From a virus (taxonomy: Duplodnaviria; Caudoviricetes), in IMG/VR virus record IMGVR_UViG_3300043434_000734, positions 96,001 through 160,000 of that record: 64,000 nt of DNA, one strand, 5' to 3'. The translations under genes were made by a program, and so were the position numbers. A model generated the notes under the pieces. It searched no databases, was not told where the DNA came from, and was given only the letters and a program-made list of their open reading frames with translations. Positions 41,264 through 61,603 of this stretch are shown here, one piece after another. Position 1 is the first letter of the stretch. Every line of letters begins with the position of its first letter.

Positions 41264-41578
41264 TTACCACTTAGGTGCCTCTTCCTTAAACTCATCACCC
41301 TCCTTTTTCTTAGGTTTTGGTTGAGGTTGTGTCGGCTCTGACGATTTTTCTTTAATTATTATAGTCTTTCCACCTGCAGCTTGTTGTTGAGCTTGTTGAT
41401 TTGAGTTTGTAATATTAATCACCGGCGCAGCCTGTTGTACTGGTGTTTCTTCTTTATCACCACCCGTTAATTGTGTTGTGAACCAACCACCTACACCTAG
41501 TGTAATTGTTGATACTAACCCTAATAGAATGTTCTTTAACGAACCTCCTGTACTTTCTGATTTTTCTTCTTCTGCCAT
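41264..41578 (-). CDS. Single-TM protein with Gln-rich tail
   Basis: ILLGLVSTITLGVGGWF. Confidence 0.75.
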   Translation of the reverse strand: MAEEEKSESTGGSLKNILLGLVSTITLGVGGWFTTQLTGGDKEETPVQQAAPVINITNSNQQAQQQAAGGKTIIIKEKSSEPTQPQPKPKKKEGDEFKEEAPKW

Positions 41579-47786: not shown

Positions 47787-47885
47787 ATGAGACAATTTAC
47801 ACATACAATGTCGTTTACAATCTGTTCAAAATGGGCGGATGAAACTCGTATGTCCAATAGTCTCAGAGATATTAATCACGGTTAA
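47787..47885 (+). CDS. Putative attenuator leader peptide 1 (MRQFTHTMSFTICSKWADETRMSNSLRDINHG)
   Basis: A-rich start; carries an 8-nt complement of the downstream terminator arm. Confidence 0.65.
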   Translation: MRQFTHTMSFTICSKWADETRMSNSLRDINHG

Positions 47886-47911
47886 ATGTAAGTTTAACTA
47901 ATAGAATTAAG

Positions 47912-47945
47912 AAACCCTGAGACTTCAAAATCTCAGGGTTTTTTG
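47912..47945 (+). terminator. Terminator/attenuator directly before tRNA-Ala
   Basis: aaaccctgaga-cttcaaaa-tctcagggttt plus T-tract. Confidence 0.9.
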
Positions 47946-47950
47946 TTTAT

Positions 47951-48023
47951 GGGCCTGATGTCAACGGCAGACCATCTGATTTGCAATCAGAATGAATGGG
48001 TTCGATTCCCACAGCGTCCACCA
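47951..48023 (+). tRNA. tRNA-Ala(TGC), bulged acceptor stem, encoded CCA
   Basis: tctga-tttgcaa-tcaga; G3:U70. Confidence 0.8.
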
Positions 48024-48026
48024 AAT

Positions 48027-48099
48027 TGGAATGTAGCTCAATGGTGAGAGCATCCGCCTGATACGCGGAAGGTTATAAGTTCGAGTCTTATCATTCCAA
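48027..48099 (+). tRNA. tRNA-Ile(GAT)
   Basis: tccgc-ctgatac-gcgga; full cloverleaf. Confidence 0.95.
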
Positions 48100-48104
48100 C
48101 ATTG

Positions 48105-48177
48105 GGAACTTTGGTATAGCCGGTGCGTACGTTGGACTGAAAATCCGAAGGAACAAGTTCGATTCTTGTAGGTTCCA
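48105..48177 (+). tRNA. tRNA-Phe(GAA)
   Basis: ttgga-ctgaaaa-tccga. Confidence 0.9.
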
Positions 48178-48240
48178 CAAATAAAGTAAAATTTGAACGA
48201 TAAAGTTAATCACTTTATTAAACAGAAATAACTTTATTAT

Positions 48241-48314
48241 GACCTCTTAGCTCAGTTGGTTAGAGCACCTCACTTTTAATGAGGGAGTCCCGCGTTCGAG
48301 TCGCGGAGGGGTCA
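48241..48314 (+). tRNA. tRNA-Lys(TTT)
   Basis: cctca-cttttaa-tgagg. Confidence 0.95.
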
Positions 48315-48319
48315 CACAC

Positions 48320-48392
48320 ACGGGTATGGTGAAAATGGTTATCATTTTAGTCTCCAAAACTAAAGTTCCTGATTCGAGTTCAGGTATCCGTG
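48320..48392 (+). tRNA. tRNA-Trp(CCA)
   Basis: ttagt-ctccaaa-actaa. Confidence 0.92.
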
Positions 48393-48453
48393 CAAATGTT
48401 CGATTTTTTTAGTCCGTTTCGAACTTTCGTGATATTTATAAATAAAGAACATT

Positions 48454-48993
48454 ATGAAAGAAGAAATATTAAAATTAAGAAATGAAGGTAAAACATTTAA
48501 CCAAATAAAAGAAATAATAAAATGTTCTAAATCTACAATTTCATATTATTGTAGTGAAGGGCAAAAAGAAAAAACAAAAATTAGAACTAAAAAGAGGAGA
48601 GAAAACATTATAATTGATAAATTAGAAAGATTTAAATATAGAAAATCTAAATCGAATAAAGAACGAATTAGAAAATTCAATAAAAGAGATAATCAAATGG
48701 ATGGATTAGTTAACAAAAAAATAGAAATTACATTCACATTTGAAGATGTTATCAAGAAGTTTGGTTATAGTACTGTTTGTTATCTTTCCGGAGAAAAAAT
48801 AAATTTAAATGAAAACACATACCATTTTGACCATATTTTACCATCAAGTAGAGGTGGTGATAACACATTAGAAAATTTAGGTGTTACACACGAAATTGTA
48901 AATAAAATGAAAGGGGACTTAACACCAAAGGAACTTATTCTTTGGTGTGAAAAAATTTTGAAATATAATGGATATGATGTAAATAAAATTTAA
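48454..48993 (+). mobile_element. HNH homing endonuclease with N-terminal HTH
   Basis: CYLSG...HFDHILPSSRGG.NTLENL...VNKMK. Confidence 0.88.
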
Positions 48994-49039
48994 TATTATG
49001 AAAAAAGAATTCGATATGCATTAGTTAAACTAATCGCAT

Positions 49040-49243
49040 ATGACAAACAAAGAGTACAGAGTAAAGAGAATGAAACAATCACACGATTATTGTTTCATAT
49101 GTCAGAAGAGAAATGGAAGTTGGTATTATGATTGCTCCCCAACTTTTGTTCACGGAAGACACGGTAATGGGAAACCGATTGAATCTCATAAAAGAAGAGA
49201 GTATAGAAGTTGGAAGTACAACAGAAAAACTCAATGGAAGTAA
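49040..49243 (+). CDS. Small basic hypothetical protein
   Basis: 67 aa with CxxC. Confidence 0.55.
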   Translation: MTNKEYRVKRMKQSHDYCFICQKRNGSWYYDCSPTFVHGRHGNGKPIESHKRREYRSWKYNRKTQWK

Positions 49244-49272
49244 TGTTTACTATTAACAGTAAACAGTAAACG

Positions 49273-49344
49273 GGTCTCTTGGTGTAACGGATAGCACGAA
49301 ACACTACGGATGTTTTAGTAAGGGTTCAAATCCTTTAGAGACCT
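49273..49344 (+). tRNA. tRNA-Arg(ACG)
   Basis: aaaca-ctacgga-tgttt. Confidence 0.92.
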
Positions 49345-49405
49345 CAATGTTCACAAATTTTTAATGTTCACGTTCCGTGAACAAACAAAAAAAGTGAACA
49401 AAAAA

Positions 49406-49476
49406 GTCAGGTTGGCCGAGCGGCTAGGTGAAGGTCTGCAAAACCTTTAAGATAGGTTCGACTCCTATACTTGACT
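49406..49476 (+). tRNA. tRNA-Cys(GCA)
   Basis: aaggt-ctgcaaa-acctt; U73. Confidence 0.93.
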
Positions 49477-49481
49477 CTTAT

Positions 49482-49553
49482 GGTGTTTGAAGCTTTAAGG
49501 TGAAGCACGAGTTTGTGGAGCTCGGGAAGACGGTTCGATACCGTTCATACACC
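49482..49553 (+). tRNA. tRNA-His(GTG)
   Basis: cgagt-ttgtgga-gctcg; G-1:C73. Confidence 0.92.
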
Positions 49554-49558
49554 CATAT

Positions 49559-49629
49559 TGCGGGGAGGAAGGTTCCCGACCAGTCTCATAAGCTGTGTCT
49601 CCCGAGTTCGATTCTCGGCCCCGCAACCA
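49559..49629 (+). tRNA. Atypical tRNA-Met(CAT): initiator-like acceptor, short D-arm
   Basis: tgcgggg/ccccgca-acca; ctcataa loop. Confidence 0.7.
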
Positions 49630-49680
49630 AAAAGTTTTAAAAATAATTTGAAATAATTTCGGATATTCGTATTTATTTCT

Positions 49681-49688
49681 TACATTTG
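49681..49688 (+). promoter_or_regulatory. Bacteroidota-type -7 element TACATTTG
   Basis: Same tacatttgtaaaacaataa context as 56016. Confidence 0.75.
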
Positions 49689-49709
49689 TAAAACAATAAT
49701 GACAGAAAA

Positions 49710-49838
49710 ATGGCGAAAGCACCGAGAACATCGAAAAGAGTTGGTAAAGTGGCAAGTAAAGCATTAAGAAGTAAAAAAAGTAGCAAGACAACAAAAACTC
49801 TTGCGGGAAGTTCTTTGAGACAACGGAGAAAAAAGTAA
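49710..49838 (+). CDS. 42-aa highly basic peptide (MAKAPRTSKRVGKVASKALRS...)
   Basis: Below the ORF-track cutoff; promoter and A-rich start upstream. Confidence 0.65.
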   Translation: MAKAPRTSKRVGKVASKALRSKKSSKTTKTLAGSSLRQRRKK

Positions 49839-49843
49839 AATAA

Positions 49844-49915
49844 GCCTCTTAAGCATTGCAGGCGATGCGCCAGATTTGTAATCTGGATAACTCGGTTCGA
49901 TTCCGGGCGGAGGCT
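49844..49915 (+). tRNA. tRNA-Thr(TGT)
   Basis: ccaga-tttgtaa-tctgg. Confidence 0.9.
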
Positions 49916-49916
49916 C

Positions 49917-50375
49917 AACAAGTGACGACTGTGGTGTAACCCCACGGTATATAAATCCCAAAGAACTGTCTTGATTCGCGATATCAGAGCAGTGAGGGTA
50001 GAGTTTACTATAAGCGGGGAGTAATTAACCCAATGCGAAAATGTAACCACCAAGTGTAGAGATATATTTGGTTATGATGTACAGAAGGGTACAAAAAACT
50101 TGTTAATTTATTAATTTAGATTCTGATAACTTATAACTAAAGTTTTACTTAAACAAAGGTTATGGAGCAATTTGAGAAATGTTGTTATCACTAAGAATGT
50201 AAATTAATAAAGTTTGATTACGTTAGGTATGTAGTTTAAAAAGAACAATGTCCTAATAGATGAAGGTGTGAGTAATCACCTTACTTAACGTAATTTAAAT
50301 TTAAAACTAACTCAACGAGGACTTTGTTAACCAGAGCAAGACTTGGATGGTGCAACTTAAGGTGAGTTAGAATTT
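49917..50375 (+). ncRNA. Putative ~460-nt structured RNA of unknown class
   Basis: No + strand ORF; helices 50217-27/50284-94, 50263-68/50277-82, 50307-14/50363-70. Confidence 0.5.
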
Positions 50376-50376
50376 T

Positions 50377-50448
50377 GGTCCTGTAGTTAATCGGCTATAA
50401 TATTGCCCTGTCACGGCAAAGTGCCGGGTTCGATTCCCGGTGGGACCG
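50377..50448 (+). tRNA. tRNA-Asp(GTC)
   Basis: ttgcc-ctgtcac-ggcaa. Confidence 0.93.
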
Positions 50449-50672
50449 CAATGAGTAAGAGATACTCAATAGTCTTTAATCCAAGACTCATTTAACAATG
50501 GATGGTGGTTTGTAGTATCAACCTTAACGACTGCATATTGGGAACAAGGATTGTGGACCTACTCTCCCCCAAGTATTAGGTTGACGTTTTAACAGAGGGA
50601 TGCCTCGCAGGTTTTTGAGACAGACAAAAAACCGAAGTAACTACTCATCAGGAATCTCAAGGTGGGGAAAAT

Positions 50673-50760
50673 GGAGAGATGGTAGAGTTGGTCTATTGCA
50701 CCTGACTTGAAATCAGGAGTACTCGTGAGGGTACCGTGGGTTCGAATCCTACTCTCTCCG
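50673..50760 (+). tRNA. tRNA-Ser(TGA)
   Basis: cctga-cttgaaa-tcagg; long variable arm. Confidence 0.95.
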
Positions 50761-50876
50761 CTGTAGAGTTTGCCCGTGGTAACGGTCTGATAAGATACTT
50801 TCAGACTTCTCGCGTCAAAACCCAAAACACTGACCTACTGGTGCTTGGGCTAAATGTAGAAAAAAAACGGGATATT

Positions 50877-50964
50877 GGAGAGATGGCAGAGTTGGTCGAT
50901 TGCGTCAGACTTGAAATCTGAAGAACGGGAAACTGTTCCGTGGGTTCGAATCCTACTCTCTCCG
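50877..50964 (+). tRNA. tRNA-Ser(TGA), second copy
   Basis: tcaga-cttgaaa-tctga; long variable arm. Confidence 0.95.
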
Positions 50965-51063
50965 CGAACCAAAAGTCCAATGGGGAGGATCCACTACACG
51001 ATTAGCAATCGGAAGAGTAGATTAAGACTAAGGTTGCTTGACACTCCGGAAAGACGAGAAAAC

Positions 51064-51202
51064 AATCAAGTAGAGTGGTGGTACACTCACTATGTATGCA
51101 TCGTAAGATGGACGCCTTCTTCCCGCAGAGCACATAGATATGTCGTTTAGTGATATGGAAGAACACGGGAACGATTTGTAGGTTCGAATCCTATCTTGAT
51201 TG
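51064..51202 (+). ncRNA. Oversized tRNA-like RNA 1 (139 nt)
   Basis: Perfect 7-bp acceptor, D-arm and T-arm; 38-nt anticodon loop; 40-nt variable region. Confidence 0.7.
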
Positions 51203-51317
51203 CCTTTCCTTTCAGGGTAACGACCTGATAAATTTTGAGATACTAAAGTTGTAACACCAGGGACTCAACGAAAGAAAGTCGGAAACTAAACTTGACTGAT
51301 GGAAAGACATCAAATTT

Positions 51318-51447
51318 GGGAAGGTAGCAGAAATGGAAGATGCGTTATACGAAAGCTACGTATAAGACGCGATGACGGACACAAAAGTACAATGTGTTGA
51401 ACTAAAGATTACGCATCGTTATGGGTTCGATTCCCACTCCTGTCCCA
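51318..51447 (+). ncRNA. Oversized tRNA-like RNA 2 (130 nt)
   Basis: Bulged acceptor, D-arm, 7-bp anticodon-like stem, 55-nt variable domain, T-arm. Confidence 0.6.
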
Positions 51448-51648
51448 CAGGTCGTCTTTTTATATTGCTCAGTTTGTGGAGTTAACTTTAGAGACGTTAA
51501 ACTTAAAGTAATGAATCCAAGCCCTTTTAAAGTTGTGGTACAACTGGGTCCATTTCCTTACCGAAGGAGGTTTCCGGACCTAAAATAGAAGCCTCAAACG
51601 ACTGAAAAAAGTAGGGACATATGAGACTACCTAATCTCGTCCCGAAAT

Positions 51649-51720
51649 GGCCCTATCGACAAGCGGTTAAGTCACGTCCCTTTCACGGATGAGTCACGGG
51701 TTCGAATCCCGTTGGGGCTA
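51649..51720 (+). tRNA. tRNA-Glu(TTC)
   Basis: cgtcc-ctttcac-ggatg. Confidence 0.95.
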
Positions 51721-51735
51721 CTAAATGGTTTTACT

Positions 51736-51894
51736 ATGAAGAAGATTGTATTTTTATTGTTAGTAATGGTTACAATGAGTAGTTGTTTATATACAACATA
51801 TAGACGACCTTATTATCAACGATATCCGACTTATCAGAAACATTATCAACCAAATAAAAAATATAAACCTTACTTTAGACCAGGTCGTTGGTAA
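51736..51894 (+). CDS. Small Tyr/Arg/Pro-rich lipoprotein
   Basis: MKK-hydrophobic-MSSC lipobox. Confidence 0.75.
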   Translation: MKKIVFLLLVMVTMSSCLYTTYRRPYYQRYPTYQKHYQPNKKYKPYFRPGRW

Positions 51895-51948
51895 AAAATA
51901 TTTACTATTAAATTGAATTTTTATATATTTGTATATACTTATTAAGAA

Positions 51949-52053
51949 ATGAAGAACATAAATAACATATTGTCACTTAGTACTAGACCATTAAATAATG
52001 GTAACGGGTATGGTGTGCAACCCGTGAATTTATGTTCGGATACTCATATTTAG
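51949..52053 (+). CDS. Putative attenuator leader peptide 2 (MKNINNILSLSTRPLNNGNGYGVQPVNLCSDTHI)
   Basis: TATATTTG promoter at 51924; tgttcgg complementary to the terminator 5' arm. Confidence 0.55.
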   Translation: MKNINNILSLSTRPLNNGNGYGVQPVNLCSDTHI

Positions 52054-52075
52054 AAATTTAATTAATTAAAATATA

Positions 52076-52111
52076 GACCCGAACGACTTAAAAAATTGTT
52101 CGGGTTTTTTT
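52076..52111 (+). terminator. Terminator/attenuator before the second tRNA block
   Basis: gacccgaacga...ttgttcgggtt plus T-tract. Confidence 0.88.
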
Positions 52112-52142
52112 ATGTTATTTTTTTTCTTTATATTTGAAATGT

Positions 52143-52155
52143 AGTTCTTTGACAT
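52143..52155 (+). promoter_or_regulatory. boxA-like element AGTTCTTTGACAT
   Basis: Follows TATATTTG (52129-52136); similar copies at 49809, 56042, 59421. Confidence 0.6.
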
Positions 52156-52169
52156 TGTGGAAATGATTT

Positions 52170-52254
52170 GCTCGGGTGGTGTAATGGTAGCCACGAGGGA
52201 CTTAAAATCCCTTGGACAGAAACGTCCGTGCCGGTTCGAGTCCGGCCCCGAGTA
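52170..52254 (+). tRNA. tRNA-Leu(TAA)
   Basis: aggga-cttaaaa-tccct; long variable arm. Confidence 0.95.
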
Positions 52255-52369
52255 CAATGTAATGACTTAGAAATAAGTGACGGAACAGACGCTATGTATG
52301 AAATGGAAACGTTTGAAACATTTTAAAGATGTTGATTCGACACAAACCGTACAGACATTACATTAAATT

Positions 52370-52443
52370 GGTCCAATAGCTCAGCTGGATAGAGCAACTC
52401 TCTTCTAAAGAGTAGGTCTCAGGTTCGAATCCTGATTGGATCA
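52370..52443 (+). tRNA. tRNA-Arg(TCT)
   Basis: actct-cttctaa-agagt. Confidence 0.95.
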
Positions 52444-52588
52444 CGAAGATAATGGTTTTCACCACCTTACGGATGTCGACAATCCACGGTGGAATCTGAA
52501 AACAGCACCCTCTGCCGAGCGCTCGTAAAACTACGATTAAGCAGTTAAGATTGGAACGAGACGGGTATTCCAACATTATCTTTATTTT

Positions 52589-52661
52589 AGAGTAGTTGAC
52601 CAATCGGTAGGTCCCTTGCTTTGGGAGCAAGTGTGTGTAGGTTCGAGTCCTGTCTACTCTA
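52589..52661 (+). tRNA. tRNA-Pro(TGG)
   Basis: cttgc-tttggga-gcaag. Confidence 0.9.
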
Positions 52662-52668
52662 CAAAAAC

Positions 52669-52740
52669 GTTGGTATAGCTTAATGGTGAAGCATTCGGCT
52701 GTTAACCGAAAGACTGTAGGTTCGAGCCCTACTACCAACG
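52669..52740 (+). tRNA. tRNA-Asn(GTT)
   Basis: ttcgg-ctgttaa-ccgaa. Confidence 0.95.
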
Positions 52741-52747
52741 CAAAAAT

Positions 52748-52824
52748 ACCCGTATGGCGGAATTGGCATACGCGTCAGATTTAGGATCTGAATTTTGTAG
52801 GTTCGAGTCCTACTATGGGTACCA
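52748..52824 (+). tRNA. tRNA-Leu(TAG), short variable loop, encoded CCA
   Basis: tcaga-tttagga-tctga. Confidence 0.88.
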
Positions 52825-52870
52825 GGGATTGGTTGACACTAAACAACAAAACCAAAAGGAAGTGTAAAAT

Positions 52871-52954
52871 TGGAGGATGGGTGAGTGGCTAAAACCGGCA
52901 GACTGTAAATCTGCTCTCAGAACGGGTACGGGGGTTCGAATCCCTCTCCTCCAA
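52871..52954 (+). tRNA. tRNA-Tyr(GTA)
   Basis: gcaga-ctgtaaa-tctgc. Confidence 0.95.
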
Positions 52955-52968
52955 CAAAAACAAAAACT

Positions 52969-53616
52969 ATGGCAACATTAGAAACACAGTACAAGAATTA
53001 CTTAAAGTTGAATCCAGATTCAACATTCACATTTGAAGAATGGAAAGAAGATTTCGGTGGTAACGTGCTTAGACAAATGTCCGATATCTTAAAAGAAATC
53101 AAAACTCCTGAATATAAAGAAAGACGTATTAAGGAACACGAAGAACGTCTTAAAAATATTACAATGGATTATCAATTGGGACAATACGTTGGTGAGTACA
53201 TTGTAAGTCACAATCTTCCAACATTATCGACCGATATGATTCACTCTAATCGTGTGATTAAAGTGTCTGACGAAGAACAAACTGAATGTGAAAGATTGGA
53301 TGGTGAATATGTTAAATCATTGGAAGCCAATCAATGGAAAAATGGTGATAGTGAATTATTTGAAGCGTGGAAACAATATCGTAAGGTATTGGAAAAGAAA
53401 TATCTTCCACAAGTTTTAGAGTGTCATCTTAGTTTAATAAGAATTGATGACATAGTAAAATTTAAAGAAGGTTTATCTGATTGTCTTTGGAATTGTGATA
53501 TGTGTTCTTATGACATCAAAGAAGAAAACATCACAATTGAAAATGATTTACTTAACGGATTTACAATTATCAAATTTCAATATGATTCGAGTTGTAATGA
53601 TGAAATGAAAAAATAA
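52969..53616 (+). CDS. Hypothetical protein inside the tRNA array
   Basis: 215-aa ORF with A-rich start. Confidence 0.8.
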   Translation: MATLETQYKNYLKLNPDSTFTFEEWKEDFGGNVLRQMSDILKEIKTPEYKERRIKEHEERLKNITMDYQLGQYVGEYIVSHNLPTLSTDMIHSNRVIKVSDEEQTECERLDGEYVKSLEANQWKNGDSELFEAWKQYRKVLEKKYLPQVLECHLSLIRIDDIVKFKEGLSDCLWNCDMCSYDIKEENITIENDLLNGFTIIKFQYDSSCNDEMKK

Positions 53617-53667
53617 AATATCGTTTAAATATACGATATACGATTTTATCGTCTTAATAAACGATAT

Positions 53668-53741
53668 GGACTTGTAGCTCAGTAGGTTAGAGCAACTGAC
53701 TCATAATCAGTAGGTCCCTGGTTCGAGCCCAGGCTGGTCCA
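53668..53741 (+). tRNA. tRNA(CAT), elongator Met or Ile2 (lysidine)
   Basis: actga-ctcataa-tcagt. Confidence 0.9.
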
Positions 53742-53802
53742 CAAAGAGATTAGGATATTCCTTACCCGTCGCCTCGGGATGACATCGTCAGTCTCTTTAC
53801 AT

Positions 53803-53877
53803 AGAAGATTAGTTCAGTCGGTTCAGAGCATCTGTTTTACACACAGAAAGTCGGGGGTTCGAATCCCTCATCTTCTA
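53803..53877 (+). tRNA. tRNA-Val(TAC)
   Basis: tctgt-tttacac-acaga. Confidence 0.93.
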
Positions 53878-53946
53878 CAAAAAAATTGGGATTGGGTTAA
53901 TACTGATATGGAGGCAATTCCTGGTATTATCGCCGCCCAATTAAAT

Positions 53947-54022
53947 GCGAAAGTAGCTCAGTCGGTAGAGCACAACCTTGCCAAGGTTGGGGTCGCGAGT
54001 TCGAATCTCGTCTTTCGCTCCA
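53947..54022 (+). tRNA. tRNA-Gly(GCC), encoded CCA
   Basis: caacc-ttgccaa-ggttg. Confidence 0.96.
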
Positions 54023-54025
54023 TAT

Positions 54026-54098
54026 GCGAATATAGCTCAATTGGTAGAGCACTAGTTTTCCAAACTGGGGGTTGCAGGATCGTTCCCTGTTATTCGCT
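54026..54098 (+). tRNA. tRNA-Gly(TCC), atypical T-loop ATCGTTC
   Basis: ctagt-tttccaa-actgg. Confidence 0.88.
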
Positions 54099-54192
54099 CA
54101 ACTCAAGTACCCATACCGCTAACGATGGGCTAAGTAAGATACAAATTCGTACCACATTATTGTGGAGGCGGGAAGTAGAATGCTTGAGACAC

Positions 54193-54263
54193 TGTCCTTT
54201 GGTGTAACGGTAACACAATCGTTTTTGGTGCGATTATTTTAGGTTCGAATCCTAAAGGGACAA
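54193..54263 (+). tRNA. tRNA-Gln(TTG)
   Basis: atcgt-ttttggt-gcgat. Confidence 0.88.
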
Positions 54264-54278
54264 CTTAAATTTTTAAGT

Positions 54279-54509
54279 ATGAGTATTTTTGCAATTTACT
54301 ACGTAATATGTATTGCGTATTGTTTCTATCAATTAAATAAAAAATATAGAAACAGAGGTGTTGATTATGGAACATCACCAGAGTTAGATTCCATAATGGT
54401 TTTGGTTATGGCTTGGATTTTAGTGCCAATTGATGTGTCGATAACTTGGATACGAATGGTGAAAGAAGCAGAGGAGTCTAAAAGAAGACAAGAGAAACAA
54501 GTACTTTAA
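54279..54509 (+). CDS. Small 2-TM membrane protein
   Basis: Two hydrophobic segments. Confidence 0.7.
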   Translation: MSIFAIYYVICIAYCFYQLNKKYRNRGVDYGTSPELDSIMVLVMAWILVPIDVSITWIRMVKEAEESKRRQEKQVL

Positions 54510-54570
54510 CTAGTGGGCCACGGTGGTAGGCCAAAAGAAAAATAGATGTTTTTCATCCACCAAATTTTAT

Positions 54571-54656
54571 AGAGAGTTACCCAAGTTGGTGAAGGGGCCT
54601 GTTTGCTAAACAGGTAGGATGTTAAAGTCGCAAGGGTTCGAGCCCCTTACTCTCTA
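54571..54656 (+). tRNA. tRNA-Ser(GCT)
   Basis: cctgt-ttgctaa-acagg; variable arm. Confidence 0.9.
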
Positions 54657-54661
54657 CACAT

Positions 54662-54811
54662 TGTAGTGTGACGAAACTTGGCAGACGTGCCCTCCTGTCT
54701 CGGGGGTGTGGAACAAGAAATAGGTTAATAATATGGGGTAGACCACCAGCCGGCCGGCGAAGTGTTATTAACTGAATCTCCATTTAAGTGGTTCGAATCC
54801 CTTCACTACAG
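54662..54811 (+). tRNA. Oversized tRNA with Asp(GTC) anticodon and 79-nt variable arm (150 nt)
   Basis: tgtagtg/cactaca acceptor; ccctc-ctgtctc-ggggg; 10-bp helix in the insert. Confidence 0.65.
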
Positions 54812-54848
54812 CACTAATAAACCAATAATTATAATAAATGAAAAAGTA

Positions 54849-55310
54849 ATGAAAAAATTCAGAACTCTCCACGGAACCCCAATTCCAGATGTAATCAATT
54901 ACATTAGAGAGTATATTTCAACAAGAGAGGATGTGGAAATTCTCATAGGATCAGATTCACAATCATATTCAAACAGGAAAACTGTTTATGGTGTTGTTAT
55001 TGCCCTTTATACAAAAGGTAAGGGTGCACACGTATTATGTACACGTGAGACATTACCTATGGAATATAATGTGGCATCGAGATTACTTGGTGAAGTTTGG
55101 AAATCAATTGAGATTGCTGAATTTTTAAAAGAGAATGGTTTACCAAAACCTACTTGGATTGATATTGACTTAAATCCCGACCCAAAATACAAATCAAATA
55201 ATGTTCTTAGACAAGCAGTTGGTATGGTTGAGGGTATGGGTTATAAAGTAAGGTACAAACACGTAGGTGCGTTAATGACATATGCCGCAAATCATTTAGT
55301 TAGGTTATAA
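54849..55310 (+). CDS. RNase H-like YkuK-family protein
   Basis: ILIGSDSQ, RLLGEVWKSIEIA, IDIDLN, AANHL. Confidence 0.8.
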   Translation: MKKFRTLHGTPIPDVINYIREYISTREDVEILIGSDSQSYSNRKTVYGVVIALYTKGKGAHVLCTRETLPMEYNVASRLLGEVWKSIEIAEFLKENGLPKPTWIDIDLNPDPKYKSNNVLRQAVGMVEGMGYKVRYKHVGALMTYAANHLVRL

Positions 55311-55347
55311 TTTTGTTTTTTAAAATAATTCAATTACTTTTTATTAT

Positions 55348-55701
55348 ATGGTAAAACAACAAATTATAAATTTAACATATTCTTTAATGTTATTTTTACT
55401 CGGTTCGATAGGACATTGGTACATTATGTATTGGCAATTTAAAATGCCGAATTGGGTTAAGACCCCGTGGCCGTATTTGATATCAGTGGGTTGTACTTTT
55501 TTATGGATTACAGCATCCCATTATGGTGTTAAAGCATTCAACGGTGAAATGTGGAGTAATAGGTTTTTGTTCTTTGTAACAGGTATCATTATTGCGGCAA
55601 TGTTATATCCGTACCATTTCGGTCAACCATTTACAGTTAAAACGATGGTACAATTAATATTGGCATTTACCATAATATTAATTTCACTTTTTTGGAAATA
55701 G
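55348..55701 (+). CDS. 4-TM membrane protein
   Basis: Four hydrophobic segments. Confidence 0.75.
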   Translation: MVKQQIINLTYSLMLFLLGSIGHWYIMYWQFKMPNWVKTPWPYLISVGCTFLWITASHYGVKAFNGEMWSNRFLFFVTGIIIAAMLYPYHFGQPFTVKTMVQLILAFTIILISLFWK

Positions 55702-55752
55702 ATTTTTTTATTTGATTTTTATTTCTTATATTTTAATTATAAAGACAACAAT

Positions 55753-55980
55753 ATGAAATGTATTAAGGCAATTAAAGAAACTAAATCCTATTCATTAGGT
55801 GAAATTCGTAGAACTGATGACGTTGATGCTGACCAAAAAGTGGCTAGTGGTGTATGGACGTTTATTCCTAAATCAGAATGGAAAGTAAGTAAGAAAGGTA
55901 AAAAAGAAGAAGTGGAAATTACTCACGATATGGGTGGTTCTATTGAAGTAAAAAAAGAAAAGAAAAAAAATAAAAAATAA
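55753..55980 (+). CDS. Small basic hypothetical protein
   Basis: 75 aa. Confidence 0.7.
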   Translation: MKCIKAIKETKSYSLGEIRRTDDVDADQKVASGVWTFIPKSEWKVSKKGKKEEVEITHDMGGSIEVKKEKKKNKK

Positions 55981-55992
55981 TTTAATTAATAT

Positions 55993-56023
55993 TTTGTTTT
56001 TATAAAAAGTATTCGTACATTTG
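55993..56023 (+). promoter_or_regulatory. Bacteroidota -33/-7 promoter (TTTG-N19-TACATTTG)
   Basis: Both consensus elements at consensus spacing. Confidence 0.8.
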
Positions 56024-56063
56024 TAAAACAATAAGAGAAAAAGTTCTTTGATTTAAAAATATT

Positions 56064-56870
56064 GGCCGCCTATGGTCGATTAAAATAAACCACGAAAGTG
56101 GGATAAAGTGACGAGTCCTTGGTTGGGACAAGTTGCGGTTTCAGTAATGGAACTTGAGTAGGCAAGTGGAGTATCGTTGAACCTTAAGTACTGAGGGTAA
56201 CACTTTAGGGAAAGTGGTTTGATGACTGAGCAATCCGAGTTGTTTGGTTGAGGTGGGAACACCAATAAGAATAATCCATAGAGTTATTGTGAGAAATATG
56301 GTTATCCGACTATATGATTACGTGATTCAATATGATGGGAATCTTAAAACCGAAAGGTATGGTGAAGTACGAGTGGTGTCGTTATCATCCTTTATTAAAC
56401 TCTACCAAGGGTTTAGTTTTGAAGGGGTCCAAAAATATGGTAGCAGGGATGTTACAGAGAGTAGTTTAGTATCGAGTCGCTCAAAAGGTGGCTTGGCTAG
56501 GTGACGAACCACTACTTTCCAAATTCGGATAACTAAATTTTGTTAATTTTGGTTTAACAACTTAAAATCATACAAGAAAAAGTGTTCGTCAGTCGTTGTA
56601 GACAGGTGGCTACATAGTCGTGAGGGGTTCACGGCCACAAAGGGTCTCAAGCCCAATGTGATTTTTAAAAAAGTTCTCTAAACCCGCAAGGTTGAATCAG
56701 GGAGGCATCTTTGATGAGTAATGAGTATTAAAAGAGTATATAACGACTCAAGGATTGGTTAATCTAATTGACCGCCGCTGATTGGTACTACTCAAAAGGT
56801 AGTGGATATGGGAAGAATCAAATAATGTCCCTAAGTCAATCAAAAAATGGTGTAATCTCAGCCCTTTCTT
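56064..56870 (+). ncRNA. ~800-nt structured RNA, GOLLD-like candidate
   Basis: GC-enriched, no credible ORF, many hairpins, long-range 5'/3' pairing, next to tRNAs. Confidence 0.65.
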
Positions 56871-56943
56871 TTTTCAATTTTGTGTAAAATTGAATGGTGG
56901 AATTAAGTACGATATTAAAAAACCGTGCGGCCCTCAACAAAAT

Positions 56944-56970
56944 TAGTCAGGAGAAATTCTGACTTTTTTT
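56944..56970 (+). terminator. Intrinsic terminator
   Basis: agtcag-gagaaatt-ctgact plus T-tract. Confidence 0.85.
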
Positions 56971-56988
56971 ATGCTCTATTTATTATAT

Positions 56989-57624
56989 ATGTTTGAAGTT
57001 AAAAAAGTAAAATCCTTAGACAATCAGTGTGTTAGTAACATAACAAATTTTTTAGATTCTTATGAATGGGATTCTAATGTTTTTAGTGTTGCAAACAACG
57101 ATACTGTTTATGTGAACAATAACAGAAAATCAGATGGTATAAACACCTTACGTGATTTATCAGAAACTGAAATAAATAAATTCGGTAATTCCGAATTATT
57201 AAACTGTTTAAGTGAAACGATTGAAATCATAAAAAATAATTTTAATCCTTCAATTATATGGTTAATGACATACCCACCTCACACTCGATTAAATTTTCAC
57301 GTAGATGATTCAAAAGAAAGACATATATTAACATTTAACGAAAATAATCGTTTTTTTAATTATGAATATGTACGTAAAATAATTAAAATAAATTCTTTAA
57401 TTTATGTAAATGAAAGCTATCACGATAAAGAACAAGAATTTAATGATTTATTAAAAACTGAGAATTTAAATCTTGATTCTTTTAATGATTACTTTTCCAA
57501 ATTGGATAATACCCAAATAATCAATTTAGAAAAAAATTCAGTCTATTCGTTTGGTGATTCTTTACATAATTTCATAAATGGATCTAACAAATTAAGGATG
57601 ATTTTAGTTTTTGAAAATCTATAG
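56989..57624 (+). CDS. Probable 2OG-Fe(II) oxygenase-fold protein
   Basis: LMTYPPHTRLNFHVD...HNFINGS..RMIL; ATG 4 nt after TATTTATT. Confidence 0.55.
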   Translation: MFEVKKVKSLDNQCVSNITNFLDSYEWDSNVFSVANNDTVYVNNNRKSDGINTLRDLSETEINKFGNSELLNCLSETIEIIKNNFNPSIIWLMTYPPHTRLNFHVDDSKERHILTFNENNRFFNYEYVRKIIKINSLIYVNESYHDKEQEFNDLLKTENLNLDSFNDYFSKLDNTQIINLEKNSVYSFGDSLHNFINGSNKLRMILVFENL

Positions 57625-57665
57625 TTTTATTTTGAATATTAAATTATAATTCGTATATTAGGGGT

Positions 57666-58418
57666 ATGAGAATAATTTGCATTTCCGACACACACAGTCT
57701 TCAAGATTTAATGACTCACCCGATACCCAAAGGTGATGTGTTAATCCATTCTGGTGACATTTCAAATAAAGGTGGTGAAAAAGATGTTACCAATTTTGTA
57801 CATTGGTTTCAAAATATTGAGGGTTTTAACTCTAAGATATTCATCGCTGGTAATCACGATTTTTGTTTTGAGAGAATTAATCAACCTTACCATAAAGGTG
57901 ATTACGATTGGTTAAATAATTTAATGTCACCAGAAAATTTATCACAATCAAACGTAACGTATTTGGAGGATAATGAATTAGTTATTGAATCACCCGAGTT
58001 TTCTAAACCAATCAAGTTTTATGGTAGTCCTTGGCAACCTAATTTCTGGGATTGGGCGTTTAACTTACCAAGAATGGGTGATGAAATAAAAAGTAAATGG
58101 GATATGATTCCTGACGATACTGACGTATTGATCACACACGGACCACCAAACGAAATTAGAGATTTTGTAAGTAATTGGAGACAAGGTGATACGAACGTTG
58201 GTTGTGAATTATTAAGACACCAATTAGAGAATAGACTAAAACCATCTTTACACGTATTTGGACATATTCACGGAGCGTATGGTGCCGCGTTAATTAAAGA
58301 TACACTTTATGTTAATGCATCAATTTGTACTGAAAGATATGAACCATCAAATAAACCAATCATTGTTGACTTAGAAGAAGTCGAAGGTAAAATAATTGCA
58401 AGTTATGTCGAAGAATAA
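57666..58418 (+). CDS. Metallophosphoesterase (MPPED-like)
   Basis: ISDTH, HSGDI, IAGNHD, THGPP, HVFGHIH. Confidence 0.93.
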   Translation: MRIICISDTHSLQDLMTHPIPKGDVLIHSGDISNKGGEKDVTNFVHWFQNIEGFNSKIFIAGNHDFCFERINQPYHKGDYDWLNNLMSPENLSQSNVTYLEDNELVIESPEFSKPIKFYGSPWQPNFWDWAFNLPRMGDEIKSKWDMIPDDTDVLITHGPPNEIRDFVSNWRQGDTNVGCELLRHQLENRLKPSLHVFGHIHGAYGAALIKDTLYVNASICTERYEPSNKPIIVDLEEVEGKIIASYVEE

Positions 58419-59085
58419 TGAAGTGGTTAGTGTTGTAATATCAACACGTAAAATAGACGAGACTTATGTTAGTCACGTTAAAAAAATGTTTTCACACCCA
58501 AAGACCCAAATTCTCATTTATGAGAACGACGGAGAGAAATCATTAACCCAAATGTATAATATTGGATTAAAAGAATCGGTAAATAATATTGTGGTGTTTA
58601 TGCACGATGATCTTATTTTGGAAACGACCAATATAACTCCAAAGATTACTAAGATGTTCGAAAAACATCCCGAATATGGTATTATCGGTATTGCTGGCAC
58701 CGATAAATTAACCAGCGGGATGTGGTGGCAAAATAGGGATAATATGTTTGGTGTTGTTGGTCATCTACATCAAGGTAAACGTCACATTAATCGGTATTCT
58801 AAGGGGGTTTTTAACGACGTTCTTAAAGATGTGGTAGTTGTGGACGGTTTATTCTTTATTGTTCATAAGAATCGAATTAAGAAGGAATTTAACGAAGAGT
58901 TTGAAGGATTTCATTTCTATGATATCTCATTCTGTGTTGAAAACCATTTAGAAGGGGTTAAAGTGGGTTTAACCACTAAATTTGAAGTAACTCACAAGTC
59001 AATTGGAGAAATCAATAAGAAGTGGGAAAAGAATAAATTATTCTTTGAGGCATTATATAGTAAATCCTTACCGTTAACCACTTGA
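58405..59085 (+). CDS. Glycosyltransferase family 2-like protein
   Basis: YNIGLKES...VFMHDDL, DGLF, FHFYD. Confidence 0.8.
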   Translation: MSKNNEVVSVVISTRKIDETYVSHVKKMFSHPKTQILIYENDGEKSLTQMYNIGLKESVNNIVVFMHDDLILETTNITPKITKMFEKHPEYGIIGIAGTDKLTSGMWWQNRDNMFGVVGHLHQGKRHINRYSKGVFNDVLKDVVVVDGLFFIVHKNRIKKEFNEEFEGFHFYDISFCVENHLEGVKVGLTTKFEVTHKSIGEINKKWEKNKLFFEALYSKSLPLTT

Positions 59086-59134
59086 TAATTTACCAAATTT
59101 TGTATATATTTATATTATATAAAAAAACTAATTT

Positions 59135-59347
59135 ATGAAAAAAATTATCGAACTTATTAAGAAACTTTTGGGTAAAGGTACTATGGCGGAAAAGTCAGTA
59201 GTATTGAATGAACTTCAGGTTGAGGTAAAACAAGACATTGAATTGATTCAAGAAGTTGTTAAGGAAGTTAAAGCTAAAAAGGCTAAAGCACCGAAAACAT
59301 CGGCAGAACCAAAAGCACCAAAAGCTAAGAAAACAGTTAAGAAATAA
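59135..59347 (+). CDS. Small protein with Lys/Ala/Pro-rich tail
   Basis: KAKKAKAPKTSAEPKAPKAKK. Confidence 0.7.
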   Translation: MKKIIELIKKLLGKGTMAEKSVVLNELQVEVKQDIELIQEVVKEVKAKKAKAPKTSAEPKAPKAKKTVKK

Positions 59348-59371
59348 TTTTTTTCTTTTGGTAACATAATT

Positions 59372-59403
59372 GAGGGTTAAAATTAGTTTTTTAACCCTTT
59401 TTT
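59372..59403 (+). terminator. Intrinsic terminator
   Basis: agggttaaa...tttaaccct plus T-tract. Confidence 0.8.
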
Positions 59404-59406
59404 GTT

Positions 59407-59433
59407 TACCTTTGTTTTATAGTTCTTTAACAT
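59407..59433 (+). promoter_or_regulatory. -7 element TACCTTTG plus boxA-like AGTTCTTTAACAT before tmRNA
   Basis: Direct sequence match. Confidence 0.7.
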
Positions 59434-59435
59434 AT

Positions 59436-59836
59436 GGGGATGTCTGGTATTGATTTCAGGTATCAGGGATAAATGGCACGTAGTCAGAATTCATCTATGA
59501 CTTAAATCCACGGTGAAACATTTTAGACGGCAACGTTTACAACAATATGGAAATTGCAGGTTTACTTGCAACTTCTAAAGTAGCGGCCTAACCAAGTTAG
59601 CACTACACTCGGGTCGATGTACATATAACCTAGGAACAGAAGTACTTAAGGTGTGATACCACCTAAGAGTGTCAAAGGTCTCGTTCAGAGGGCTACCTTA
59701 AAGTGAACTCGACACAGTTATAGGGAACGATGTTAAAATAGGAACCTTTTATTTGTCTGTTGTGAACTAACAGAATAAACGTGTAGTCATTTATTGTTGA
59801 ACAGGAAAGACACGGGTTCGACTCCCGTCATCTCCA
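59436..59836 (+). ncRNA. ssrA: tmRNA; tag GNVYNNMEIAGLLATSKVAA* (59529-59591)
   Basis: ggggatg/catctcc-a acceptor with G3:U70, T-arm acggg-ttcgact-cccgt, tag ending VAA. Confidence 0.93.
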
Positions 59837-59839
59837 CAT

Positions 59840-59870
59840 AAAAAAACCCACCTAAATGGTGGGTTTTTTA
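59840..59870. terminator. Bidirectional terminator after tmRNA
   Basis: aaaaaacccacc-taaat-ggtgggtttttt. Confidence 0.88.
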
Positions 59871-61603
59871 TTTTCTATTAAACTCATTAGGTGTTCGGCT
59901 AATTCCATATGTCCCACTCTTCCAGTGTGACCGTCCATAACTCCACCATTGGTTTCATCTTTAATTAAACTATATTTCTTATAAGGTATCATATTGTCAA
60001 AACATTTCTTCTTGTGATTGACGGAACCAAAATGTTTAATATTAAATTCGTTGTGTGCGAACCTTTGTCTCTCAGGTGTTCCGTATTCAATGTTGACAAT
60101 TGCAATTTTTTTACCATTATCCGCCAATTTTTTCATCTCAACTAAATCAACGTCGGTTTTTAAATCAACAACATAATCACAATTATTGTTAATCACTTCT
60201 TTTAATTTATCATCGGTATCTCTCCAATTTGGTACCATTAAAGAATGTTTTAAATCAATACTTTCTTGTGACCATATGTTATTTGATACCACAATTTCAG
60301 GATCAACCCAAGTCCAATGGTATATTTTATTTTTGGGTAATAAATTTTTAATCACATCCATAAATTGACTTATTTCTGTCCACCAAATTGAATGAGTGTC
60401 TCTATTAATCGACAATTGTTGGGTACTCGATAAATCTACATCGTCGTTTTGTTTTGGATGTGGTGTGTTTGGTAAGATATCAACAAAGGAATTTACATTA
60501 TTCGCTAATTTAAATCTATTGATTGCTGTCCAACCAAATACCAAAATATCATTTGGTTTTATGGATTTGTAATTGTCCATAAATTTATCAAATATAGTGT
60601 AGTTAGAACATCCACCTATACCGTAGTTATGTAATTCAATGTCATATTTTTTAGAAATTATTTCACTGTAAGTTTCAGGTATGTCACCTAAAAAATCAAA
60701 ATAGTTTTTTGCCCAAACCGTACCAGCATCAAAGTGCGATTTAAATGTTTTTGTATGTGAATCACCAAACGCAAATAATCTCGGTTTTAATCTATCCTCA
60801 ATCATTTTAATTATTTTTTCACCATACATCTTATTACCAAAATAACCGGGATGTTTATCATCGGTAATACCGGGTACCTCATCTTTAATTGTTTGACCGT
60901 TGAATGTGCAGAACTGATTAACACAATTATATTCACCAAATTTTAAATTTTTTTTTGGGTCCAACAAAGAATAAAACTCATCGTATGGATTTTTCATACT
61001 CTCATCGTCAAACCAATAAAAGAATTCAATATTATTTTTTTCTAAAAAACTAAACAACCCAACAAGTTCACCTCTGTATCTATCAACATAGGCAACCGGA
61101 TTGTGATATTTTGATAAATATTCTTTAGTTTCGTCGGTAATTCTACCCTCAAAAAATTCACGTGAATACTTTATTTTATCTTTAGTGATAACTTCTTGTA
61201 TCTGTATTCCTGATAAATTACCAATATTTCTGTCATCGTCATATCTCACATTTGTAATTGCATAATCACCAATTTCATTATAATATTGGTCGACCCTATG
61301 TACTGGACTTGTAATCTCCAATAAGAATAAAGTTTTTCTTGCTTTCTCAATACCAATCTCTTCAATATGTTCATACGTTCTTCTAACTAGTCTTGGTGCT
61401 CCCGAACCCGAAAAAGCATCGTGTATTAATGAAACACCAAAATGGTTGGCGATGTATTTTGGATATGTGACATCTTTTTCATTATCCCATTCTATATTAT
61501 ATAATCTCTTATACTCATTTTTAATCATCCCTTGGTCTAAACCACCACCCGCAGTTAGTGAAGAACCATTAACATATATTCTTGTAAAGTTGTAATATTT
61601 CAT
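59852..61603 (-). CDS. Tandem SGNH-like domain protein, paralog of 33301-33966
   Basis: YVNGSSLT..DDKHP and FAFGDSHT..DGH. Confidence 0.65.
   Translation of the reverse strand: MKYYNFTRIYVNGSSLTAGGGLDQGMIKNEYKRLYNIEWDNEKDVTYPKYIANHFGVSLIHDAFSGSGAPRLVRRTYEHIEEIGIEKARKTLFLLEITSPVHRVDQYYNEIGDYAITNVRYDDDRNIGNLSGIQIQEVITKDKIKYSREFFEGRITDETKEYLSKYHNPVAYVDRYRGELVGLFSFLEKNNIEFFYWFDDESMKNPYDEFYSLLDPKKNLKFGEYNCVNQFCTFNGQTIKDEVPGITDDKHPGYFGNKMYGEKIIKMIEDRLKPRLFAFGDSHTKTFKSHFDAGTVWAKNYFDFLGDIPETYSEIISKKYDIELHNYGIGGCSNYTIFDKFMDNYKSIKPNDILVFGWTAINRFKLANNVNSFVDILPNTPHPKQNDDVDLSSTQQLSINRDTHSIWWTEISQFMDVIKNLLPKNKIYHWTWVDPEIVVSNNIWSQESIDLKHSLMVPNWRDTDDKLKEVINNNCDYVVDLKTDVDLVEMKKLADNGKKIAIVNIEYGTPERQRFAHNEFNIKHFGSVNHKKKCFDNMIPYKKYSLIKDETNGGVMDGHTGRVGHMELAEHLMSLIENKKPTI

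What the first reader, a model, noticed from the sequence alone, without database searches (positions are those of the whole stretch)
49917..50375. ~460-nt structured RNA between tRNA-Thr and tRNA-Asp
No plausible + strand ORF. Nested helices: gtgg/ccac (49931-44), actgtcttgat/atcagagcagt, attacgttagg/cttaacgtaat (11 bp, 50217-50294) enclosing aaggtg/cacctt, and ctaactca/tgagttag (50307-50370). Flanking tRNA processing would release it as a discrete RNA. The class is not recognised.
Basis: partly seen in the sequence, partly recalled or inferred. Interest (0 to 1): 0.65.

Follow-up and report, generated by a model that had tools for sequence, protein, structure and literature searches.

The report
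Self-pairing phage tRNA-array RNA family
Between two tRNA genes of an uncultured giant phage lies a roughly 190-base folded RNA, conserved in 94 phage contigs and matching no catalogued family, whose two self-complementary loops suggest that copies of it assemble into protein-free dimers or rings.

Summary
The helices are real, but the 460 nt are not one RNA. They hold four modules. Module A (49918-50103, 186 nt) is an RNA family found in 94 IMG/VR phage contigs, one copy in each contig searched whole; the window itself is T4-like. It has no Rfam match and is not manA, raiA, GOLLD, 6S or T4 RNAC/D. Across 68 distinct sequences, 38 of 50 pairs show compensatory change. These include two pseudoknots and a tertiary pair around a T-loop arm. 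Two hairpin loops (49976-81, 50022-27) keep a self-complementary core through 10 and 8 inferred changes. Adjacent bases switch together (GC/UA/AU/CG; AU/GC), the signature used for intermolecular kissing loops in GOLLD and OLE. Module A sits like a tRNA gene: directly after a tRNA, tmRNA or Bacteroidota-type promoter, and before a tRNA or small module. B1, B2 (a tRNA-like cloverleaf) and C are optional passengers. Best reading: a stable RNA cut from the tRNA transcript that self-assembles through two symmetric contacts. Expression, assembly and purpose are untested. First-stage readers noted this family in other genomes, one suggesting palindrome-driven dimerisation.

The parts
49681..49688 (+). 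Bacteroidota-type -7 promoter element (TAnnTTTG) heading the transcription unit; inferred, not mapped
   Evidence: the consensus is from my own knowledge; the same element lies 4-8 nt before module A in 10 of 72 homologs
49844..49916 (+). tRNA-Thr(UGU); its 3' end abuts module A
49918..50103 (+). Module A: 186-nt RNA, six-way junction closed by P1 (49918-23 with 50098-103), arms P2, P3/P4, P5/P6, P7, P8
49928..49948 (+). P2 arm with 7-nt T-loop-type loop (49935-41, mostly UGNRA plus two extruded bases); extra pair 49930-49949
   Evidence: pair 49930-49949 is U-A 39, G-C 26, A-U 1, G-U 1, unpaired 1; the T-loop assignment rests on my knowledge of the consensus
49940..49941 (+). Pseudoknot PK2, 5' side; pairs with 50087-50088 in loop L8
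   Evidence: 49940-50088 paired in 68 of 68 (C-G 61, G-C 4, U-G 2, U-A 1); held-out L140 shows U-A; the second pair is formed in 54 of 68 as aligned
49950..49953 (+). Pseudoknot PK1, 5' side; pairs with 50073-50076
   Evidence: 100% paired; 49953-50073 shows five pair types and 18 parsimony changes; the other three pairs are invariant
49976..49981 (+). Loop L4 palindrome (UCGCGA): predicted symmetric kissing interface 1
   Evidence: a perfect 4-nt core in 68 of 68 (CGCG 41, CUAG 12, CCGG 12, UCGA 2, CAUG 1)
50011..50039 (+). P5/P6 internal loop with conserved UAA (50011-13) opposite GAA (50037-39), a UAA/GAN-type A-minor donor
   Evidence: conservation; the motif name is from my own knowledge and was not tested structurally
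50022..50027 (+). Loop L6 palindrome (UAAUUA) in a loop laid out as 2 nt + hexamer + A: predicted symmetric kissing interface 2
   Evidence: UAAUUA 56, UAGCU- 6, UGGCCA 2, GUGCAC 2, UGAUUA 1, UUGCUG 1 (the one clear exception)
50073..50076 (+). Pseudoknot PK1, 3' side (J7/8)
50107..50211 (+). Module B1: AU-rich rod with asymmetric bulge; optional passenger, 6 sequences
   Evidence: z -3.58; some compensatory pairs; B found in 2 of 36 contigs searched whole
50216..50295 (+). Module B2: three-armed tRNA-like cloverleaf on a long closing stem, with no 7-nt anticodon loop and no encoded CCA; travels with B1
   Evidence: z -2.90; homolog L001 z -5.29
50307..50370 (+). Module C: 64-nt conserved small RNA, usually directly 3' of module A; optional
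   Evidence: 21 sequences, 7 of 22 pairs compensatory; directly after A in 26 of 72 loci; strong hits in 7 of 36 contigs, always beside A or B
50377..50449 (+). tRNA-Asp(GUC), 3' boundary of the spacer

Best explanation
Module A is an independent phage-encoded non-coding RNA gene that is handled like a tRNA gene. It is co-transcribed in the tRNA array and cut free at a flanking tRNA end or begun at a promoter (inferred). It folds into a compact six-way junction locked by two pseudoknots, a T-loop arm and an A-rich internal loop (helices and pseudoknots supported by covariation; motif names inferred). Its two outward hairpin loops each pair with the same loop of another copy (inferred from covariation of adjacent bases). 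Two different two-fold contacts give a closed dimer if both engage one partner, or a ring, cage or filament if they engage different partners. The result is a protein-free assembly of the GOLLD/ROOL/OLE/manA type. Its likeliest job (weakest step, about 0.35) is a stable, abundant scaffold or decoy that supports phage translation, for example by binding host RNA-targeting or defence proteins. My odds: discrete conserved structured RNA 0.97; self-association through the loops 0.8; larger than a dimer 0.45. The confidence given is for processed RNA plus self-assembly, not for the job.
For: Covariation: 97.8% of cells paired and 38 of 50 pairs with a change on both sides; 0 of 500 shuffles reach this, and slid controls give 35-47% paired. 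Pseudoknot pairs change 18 and 6 times on a tree built without those columns. The L4 and L6 cores change 10 and 8 times; L4 always stays self-complementary and L6 does in all but one sequence. Only these two adjacent-column pairs switch between Watson-Crick types without single-change intermediates, once the shifted-register rows at L4 are allowed for. Control loops L2, L7 and L8 show little or no palindrome excess. L4 and L6 cores never share a sequence, so the two contacts are orthogonal. Kretsch et al. 2025 (PMC12286853) used this same signature to support intermolecular kissing loops seen by cryo-EM in OLE and GOLLD. manA RNAs under 200 nt form 8-, 10- and 60-mers through kissing loops (10.64898/2026.07.01.735769). 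Ends: 53 of 72 loci start right after a tRNA, tRNA-like or tmRNA 3' end, and 10 start right after the promoter. No protein gene is a constant neighbour.
Against: The commonest L6 hexamer is AU-only and weak on its own (-0.4 kcal/mol as a free duplex, against -7.9 for L4), so it needs avidity or may be vestigial. One member (L033) has a broken L6 palindrome. The tree rests on about 170 columns and phages recombine, so change counts are rough. Covariation cannot give stoichiometry. No evidence bears on the biological job.
Confidence: 0.7

Rival explanations
1. Module A is a monomeric folded RNA that works through its invariant core, as an unknown ribozyme, ligand binder or protein binder; the loop palindromes only stabilise the hairpin tips.
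For: About 45 positions are 97% or more conserved, clustered around PK1, P2 and the A-rich joiners, as in ribozyme and aptamer cores. A C-G pair closing a 2-nt turn is possible within one strand.
Against: An intramolecular loop gives no reason for the two central adjacent bases to stay complementary through four different dinucleotides. No ribozyme or riboswitch family matches. What follows is a tRNA or small RNA in 64 of 72 loci, not a regulated gene. This rival can coexist with assembly.
Confidence: 0.15
2. Module A binds or chaperones tRNA (T-box or RNase P-like elbow recognition) and helps process or shield the array's tRNAs.
For: It nearly always lies in tRNA arrays and carries a T-loop-type loop.
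Against: Only one T-loop is clear, and its extruded bases are used by PK2. There is no conserved unpaired UGGN for the CCA end and no specifier loop. The flanking tRNAs vary (Thr, Met, Asn, Leu, Glu, tmRNA upstream; Asp, Glu, Gln, Gly, Arg, Tyr downstream).
Confidence: 0.07
3. Module A is a 6S-like decoy of host RNA polymerase (raised in an earlier scan note on another genome).
For: Its length (about 186 nt) matches 6S RNA.
Against: 6S is an unbranched rod with a central bubble (own knowledge); this RNA is a six-way junction with two pseudoknots. No 6S family hit up to E = 10.
Confidence: 0.03
4. Module A is a selfish or neutral cassette that spreads between tRNA arrays.
For: Its position in the array varies. 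In L094 it lies between two identical tRNA-Thr copies.
Against: One copy in each of 23 contigs searched whole, no linked nuclease or integrase, and tertiary pairs kept down to 52% identity.
Confidence: 0.04
5. The whole 460-nt spacer is one RNA.
For: The window and L024 share the order A-B-C. A 460-nt processing intermediate probably exists.
Against: No helix joins the modules. A stands without B and C in many loci, B is rare and C was found in at most 2 of 7 near-complete genomes.
Confidence: 0.03

Closest known systems
GOLLD RNA (Rfam RF02032) and ROOL RNA
   Same: Phage tRNA-array location, multi-junction pseudoknotted folds, no known protein partner, and symmetric kissing loops with covariation of adjacent bases (PMC12286853). 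GOLLD co-occurs in 19 of 44 contigs and 5 of 7 near-complete ones.
   Different: Module A is about 190 nt against 600-800+ nt. Neither model matches it, and the module A model does not match the window's GOLLD with filters off. It occurs without a GOLLD hit in G002 and G039.
manA RNA (RF01745)
   Same: Similar size (192 model positions), found in T4-like cyanophages, and forms closed oligomers through kissing loops.
   Different: Different consensus and helix order; no cross-match either way. The manA kisses reported are between different loops (L5-L7', L8-L9'), whereas these are self-complementary. manA lies upstream of protein genes.
OLE RNA
   Same: Homodimer with a palindromic kissing loop that switches between palindromes.
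   Different: About 600 nt, in Bacillota, with protein partners; no Rfam match here.
Phage T4 species 1 and 2 RNAs (rnaC 139 nt, rnaD 119 nt)
   Same: Stable non-tRNA RNAs encoded in a T4 tRNA cluster. B2 and C resemble this kind of passenger most.
   Different: The module A model finds nothing in the T4 cluster with filters off (best E 0.17).
raiA motif RNA (RF03072)
   Same: About 200 nt, a T-loop, two pseudoknots and a multi-way junction (and own knowledge).
   Different: No match in five module A genomes up to E = 10; a bacterial chromosomal RNA.
HIV-1 DIS kissing hairpin (loop geometry only)
   Same: A 9-nt loop with a self-complementary hexamer and flanking purines (PMC2175338). L6 has the layout 2 nt + hexamer + A, and three divergent members use the same GUGCAC hexamer.
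   Different: An analogy of motif, not homology.

Membership tests
GOLLD (RF02032) | Match to the conserved 3' domain model | tested here: not met
   No hit on 49880-50400 up to E = 10; the real GOLLD is at 56457-56864
GOLLD (RF02032) | Homology to the variable 5' domain | tested here: not met
   Module A model, filters off, over 47800-60000 finds only itself; only this one GOLLD 5' domain was tested
GOLLD/ROOL/OLE-type RNA-only oligomers (works like) | Symmetric kissing loops with covariation of adjacent bases | tested here: met
GOLLD/ROOL/OLE-type RNA-only oligomers (works like) | Oligomer of defined stoichiometry without protein | not testable with these tools
   Needs mass photometry or cryo-EM
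ROOL | Rfam model match and length near 600 nt | tested here: not met
   the unit is 186 nt
manA (RF01745) | Model match, conserved core sequence and helix order | tested here: not met
   (P-SSM2 manA as positive control, 181.6 bits)
raiA (RF03072) | Model match | tested here: not met
6S RNA | Unbranched rod with a central bubble | tested here: not met
   Six-way junction with pseudoknots; no Rfam hit
Group I intron | Interrupts a gene whose exons rejoin; catalytic core model match | tested here: not met
   The flanks are complete tRNAs or a promoter; no Rfam hit
T-box leader | Specifier loop, double T-loop and antiterminator UGGN bulge upstream of a regulated gene | tested here: not met
   No such conserved bulge in alignment A4; no Rfam hit; no downstream regulated gene
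Theta/HDV-like ribozymes (PMC10879173) | Minimal nested double pseudoknot directly 3' of a phage tRNA | tested here: not met
   The position after a tRNA is shared, but size and topology differ and no HDV-like Rfam family hits; self-cleavage itself was not tested
IscB/TnpB guide RNAs (HEARO/omega-type) | Constant adjacent nuclease gene | tested here: not met
   No protein family within 3 kb in more than 27 of 72 loci, and that one is on the opposite strand; several loci are short
T4 RNAC/RNAD | Sequence or structure homology | tested here: not met
   (module A only; B2 and C were not tested against them)
Unnamed IMG/VR candidate RNAs of Fremin et al. 2023 (PMC10690425) | Listed among the 8,495 IMG/VR candidates | not testable with these tools
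   Supplementary files are not held

The most novel reading that the evidence does not exclude
Module A is an undescribed ~190-nt RNA class that uses two orthogonal self-complementary loops to build a protein-free ring, cage or filament larger than a dimer. It would be a second, much smaller assembly encoded beside GOLLD in the same phage tRNA arrays.
Probability: 0.4. Interest if true: 0.82.

Novelty: new variant of a known kind. Interest (0 to 1): 0.66.

Why it matters
The purpose of the large ornate RNAs of phage tRNA arrays (GOLLD, ROOL) is an open question, and RNA-only assemblies were only recently shown by cryo-EM. This family is a small member of the same niche that is easy to transcribe, and its interfaces are predicted base by base. 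Natural variants supply orthogonal loop pairs for swap-and-rescue tests. If it assembles, it shows that these phages keep two unrelated self-assembling RNAs in one operon. It would also give RNA structure prediction and RNA nanotechnology a new natural fold with two programmable two-fold contacts.

Tried and rejected
Rfam at gathering and E-value thresholds: nothing on the spacer. blastn of the window and three homologs against GenBank phages: no homolog. The model found nothing in the nearest phages by capsid protein or GOLLD match (Flavobacterium phage immuto, Mel-JY01, three LR7565xx records), in 151 genomes of the phylum of a Bacteroidota MAG (only 17 candidates scored per genome, so a weak negative), or in the T4 tRNA cluster. 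The GTDB pattern scan gave two true hits, both on tiny MAG contigs (2.3 kb and 0.74 kb) with phage-like context, probably binned phage DNA. The -strand 126-codon ORF 49673-50053 was rejected: it runs antisense through tRNA-Thr, and homologs carry 1-nt indels. An apparent pair 49977-49994 was set aside: four changes, confounded by a register shift in one clade. Motif searches of the literature found no paper holding these sequences; topic searches found no description. Subscription papers are not covered.

Full report
Setting. The window is part of a large T4-like phage genome: it encodes a gp23-type capsid protein, a T4-like portal and a terminase. It carries 24 ARAGORN tRNAs, a GOLLD RNA (56457-56864) and a tmRNA (59436-59839). 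TAnnTTTG elements head the non-coding units, and the nearest cultured capsid relatives include Rhodothermus phage RM378 and Flavobacterium phage immuto at 29-38% identity. A Bacteroidota host is therefore inferred, not shown.

Observation. The spacer has no credible ORF, folds better than shuffles (z -3.06) and has no Rfam match. Pattern scans of IMG/VR and a covariance model found homologs in 94 viral contigs, one metagenome contig and two tiny MAG contigs. The homologs show that the spacer is composite. Only the first 186 nt (module A, 49918-50103) are shared by all. In 72 loci it is followed by a tRNA within about 15 nt (29), by module C (26), by module B (6), by another 60-nt element (3) or by something else (8). 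Searched over whole contigs, C appears strongly in 7 of 36 and B in 2 of 36, always next to A. A is single-copy in each of 23 contigs.

Structure of module A. The 68 distinct sequences range down to 52% pairwise identity, with an effective number of about 32 at 90% identity. The consensus is a six-way junction: P1 closes the molecule, and P2, P3/P4, P5/P6, P7 and P8 radiate from it. Mutual information added three long-range contacts. PK1 joins 49950-53 to 50073-76; its variable pair is formed in all 68 sequences in five types. PK2 joins 49940 in the P2 loop to 50088 in the P8 loop, again in all 68, in four types. The pair 49930-49949 is formed in 67 of 68. With these contacts, 97.8% of cells pair and 38 of 50 pairs change on both sides; no shuffle reaches this, and slid controls pair 35-47%. 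On a tree built without these columns the three contacts change 18, 6 and 8 times. A divergent member found later (L140) has U-A at PK2, as the model requires. P7 tolerates a 33-nt insertion. From my own knowledge of motifs, the P2 loop fits the UGNRA T-loop consensus and the P5/P6 internal loop fits UAA/GAN; these names were not tested structurally.

Two self-complementary loops. Loop L4 (49976-81) has a perfect palindromic 4-nt core in 68 of 68 sequences: CGCG, CUAG, CCGG, UCGA or CAUG. Loop L6 (50022-27) has UAAUUA, UAGCU-, UGGCCA, GUGCAC or a G-U wobble form, with one clear exception. Among 15 distinct loop sequences each, 13 and 13 reach six self-paired bases, against 4.3 and 4.9 expected from shuffles; L2, L7 and L8 show little or no excess. 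The cores change 10 and 8 times on the tree, and CGCG to CUAG recurs in about six places. Across the alignment, only these two adjacent-column pairs switch between Watson-Crick types without single-change intermediates; the 15 apparent exceptions at L4 are mostly rows whose palindrome is shifted by one column. Adjacent bases cannot pair within one strand, and Kretsch et al. used this signature for intermolecular kissing loops seen by cryo-EM in OLE and GOLLD (PMC12286853). L6 has the layout 2 nt + hexamer + A of the HIV-1 DIS loop (PMC2175338), as an analogy only. The L4 and L6 cores never coincide, so each loop can pair only with its own kind. A caveat: the usual L6 hexamer is worth only -0.4 kcal/mol as a free duplex, against -7.9 for L4, so L6 must rely on avidity.

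Ends and context. In 53 of 72 loci P1 begins just after the 3' end of a tRNA, tRNA-like gene or tmRNA, and in 10 it begins 4-8 nt after a TAnnTTTG element. Two independent kinds of boundary thus mark the same 5' end. The neighbouring tRNAs vary, and no protein gene is a constant neighbour. This argues against a riboswitch, a nuclease guide RNA or a tRNA-specific trailer. GOLLD is on the same contig in 19 of 44 cases and 5 of 7 near-complete ones, but gave no hit in G002 or G039.

Mechanism. Shown: a conserved, pseudoknotted, non-coding element placed like a tRNA gene, with two loops selected for self-complementarity. Inferred: transcription from 49681, release by tRNA 3' and 5' processing (in this genome further cuts are needed to free A from B and C), and self-assembly through two symmetric kisses. 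By general symmetry reasoning, two two-fold contacts give a closed dimer, a dihedral ring or cage, or a filament; covariation cannot choose among them. manA RNAs of this size form 8- to 60-mers through kissing loops (10.64898/2026.07.01.735769). Speculative: the particle is a stable scaffold or decoy that supports phage translation. An unknown ribozyme or ligand-binding core is the main rival and could coexist with assembly.

Passengers. B1 (50107-50211) is an AU-rich rod and B2 (50216-50295) a three-armed cloverleaf on a long stem, known from six related sequences with some compensatory pairs. C (50307-50370) is a 64-nt element known from 21 sequences at 89% mean column identity, with covariation in its closing stem and inner hairpin. 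Their functions were not pursued; they resemble the tRNA-like passengers of phage arrays such as T4 RNAC/D.

Comparison and novelty. Tests against GOLLD, ROOL, manA, raiA, 6S, group I introns, T-boxes, HDV-like ribozymes and T4 RNAC/D all failed. No paper in the library describes the family. It may be among the unnamed IMG/VR candidates of Fremin et al. 2023, which I could not check. First-stage readers of this scan noted the same family in other genomes without homolog analysis. I class it as a new family that probably works like the self-assembling RNAs of phage tRNA arrays: interest 0.66.

Noticed in passing
window 49562-49629: tRNA-like gene with a CAU anticodon and unusual D arm (initiator-like), missed by ARAGORN and scoring only a weak tmRNA-clan hit.
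   Followed up: no
window 47951-48020: Weak Rfam tRNA hit (32 bits), GCA anticodon, not called by ARAGORN; similar weak hits in L004 and L008.
   Followed up: no
window 49710-49838: 42-codon Lys/Arg/Ser-rich ORF between the promoter and tRNA-Thr; it contains a boxA-like 9-mer at 49809 that recurs at 41530, 52143, 56042 and 59421.
   Followed up: partly
window 56065-56864: GOLLD RNA (3' domain 314 bits) with an apparent 5' domain behind its own promoter; in L033 module A lies about 500 nt upstream of the GOLLD 3' domain.
   Followed up: partly
L018 3494-3560 (also L020, L023, L073): A different 60-nt structured element (z -5.83) takes the place of module C directly after module A.
   Followed up: partly
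L094 6600-6945 (minus strand): Module A is flanked by two identical tRNA-Thr copies, and the repeat includes the first bases of P1; a tandem duplication or insertion scar.
   Followed up: partly
L008 1632-1730, L010 765-865, L023, L025, L013-L015: Odd tRNA-like genes directly upstream of module A that ARAGORN misses or calls with implausible anticodons.
   Followed up: no
window 50450-50670 and 50966-51450: Further ORF-free spacers with hairpins and tRNA-like T-arms; the element right after tRNA-Asp recurs in L008, L025 and L051.
   Followed up: no
window 48454-48993: HNH endonuclease gene inserted between tRNA-Trp and tRNA-Arg.
   Followed up: no
L026 2698-2756 (minus strand): A divergent module C-like element upstream of the tRNA that precedes module A, sharing only the inner hairpin core.
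   Followed up: no
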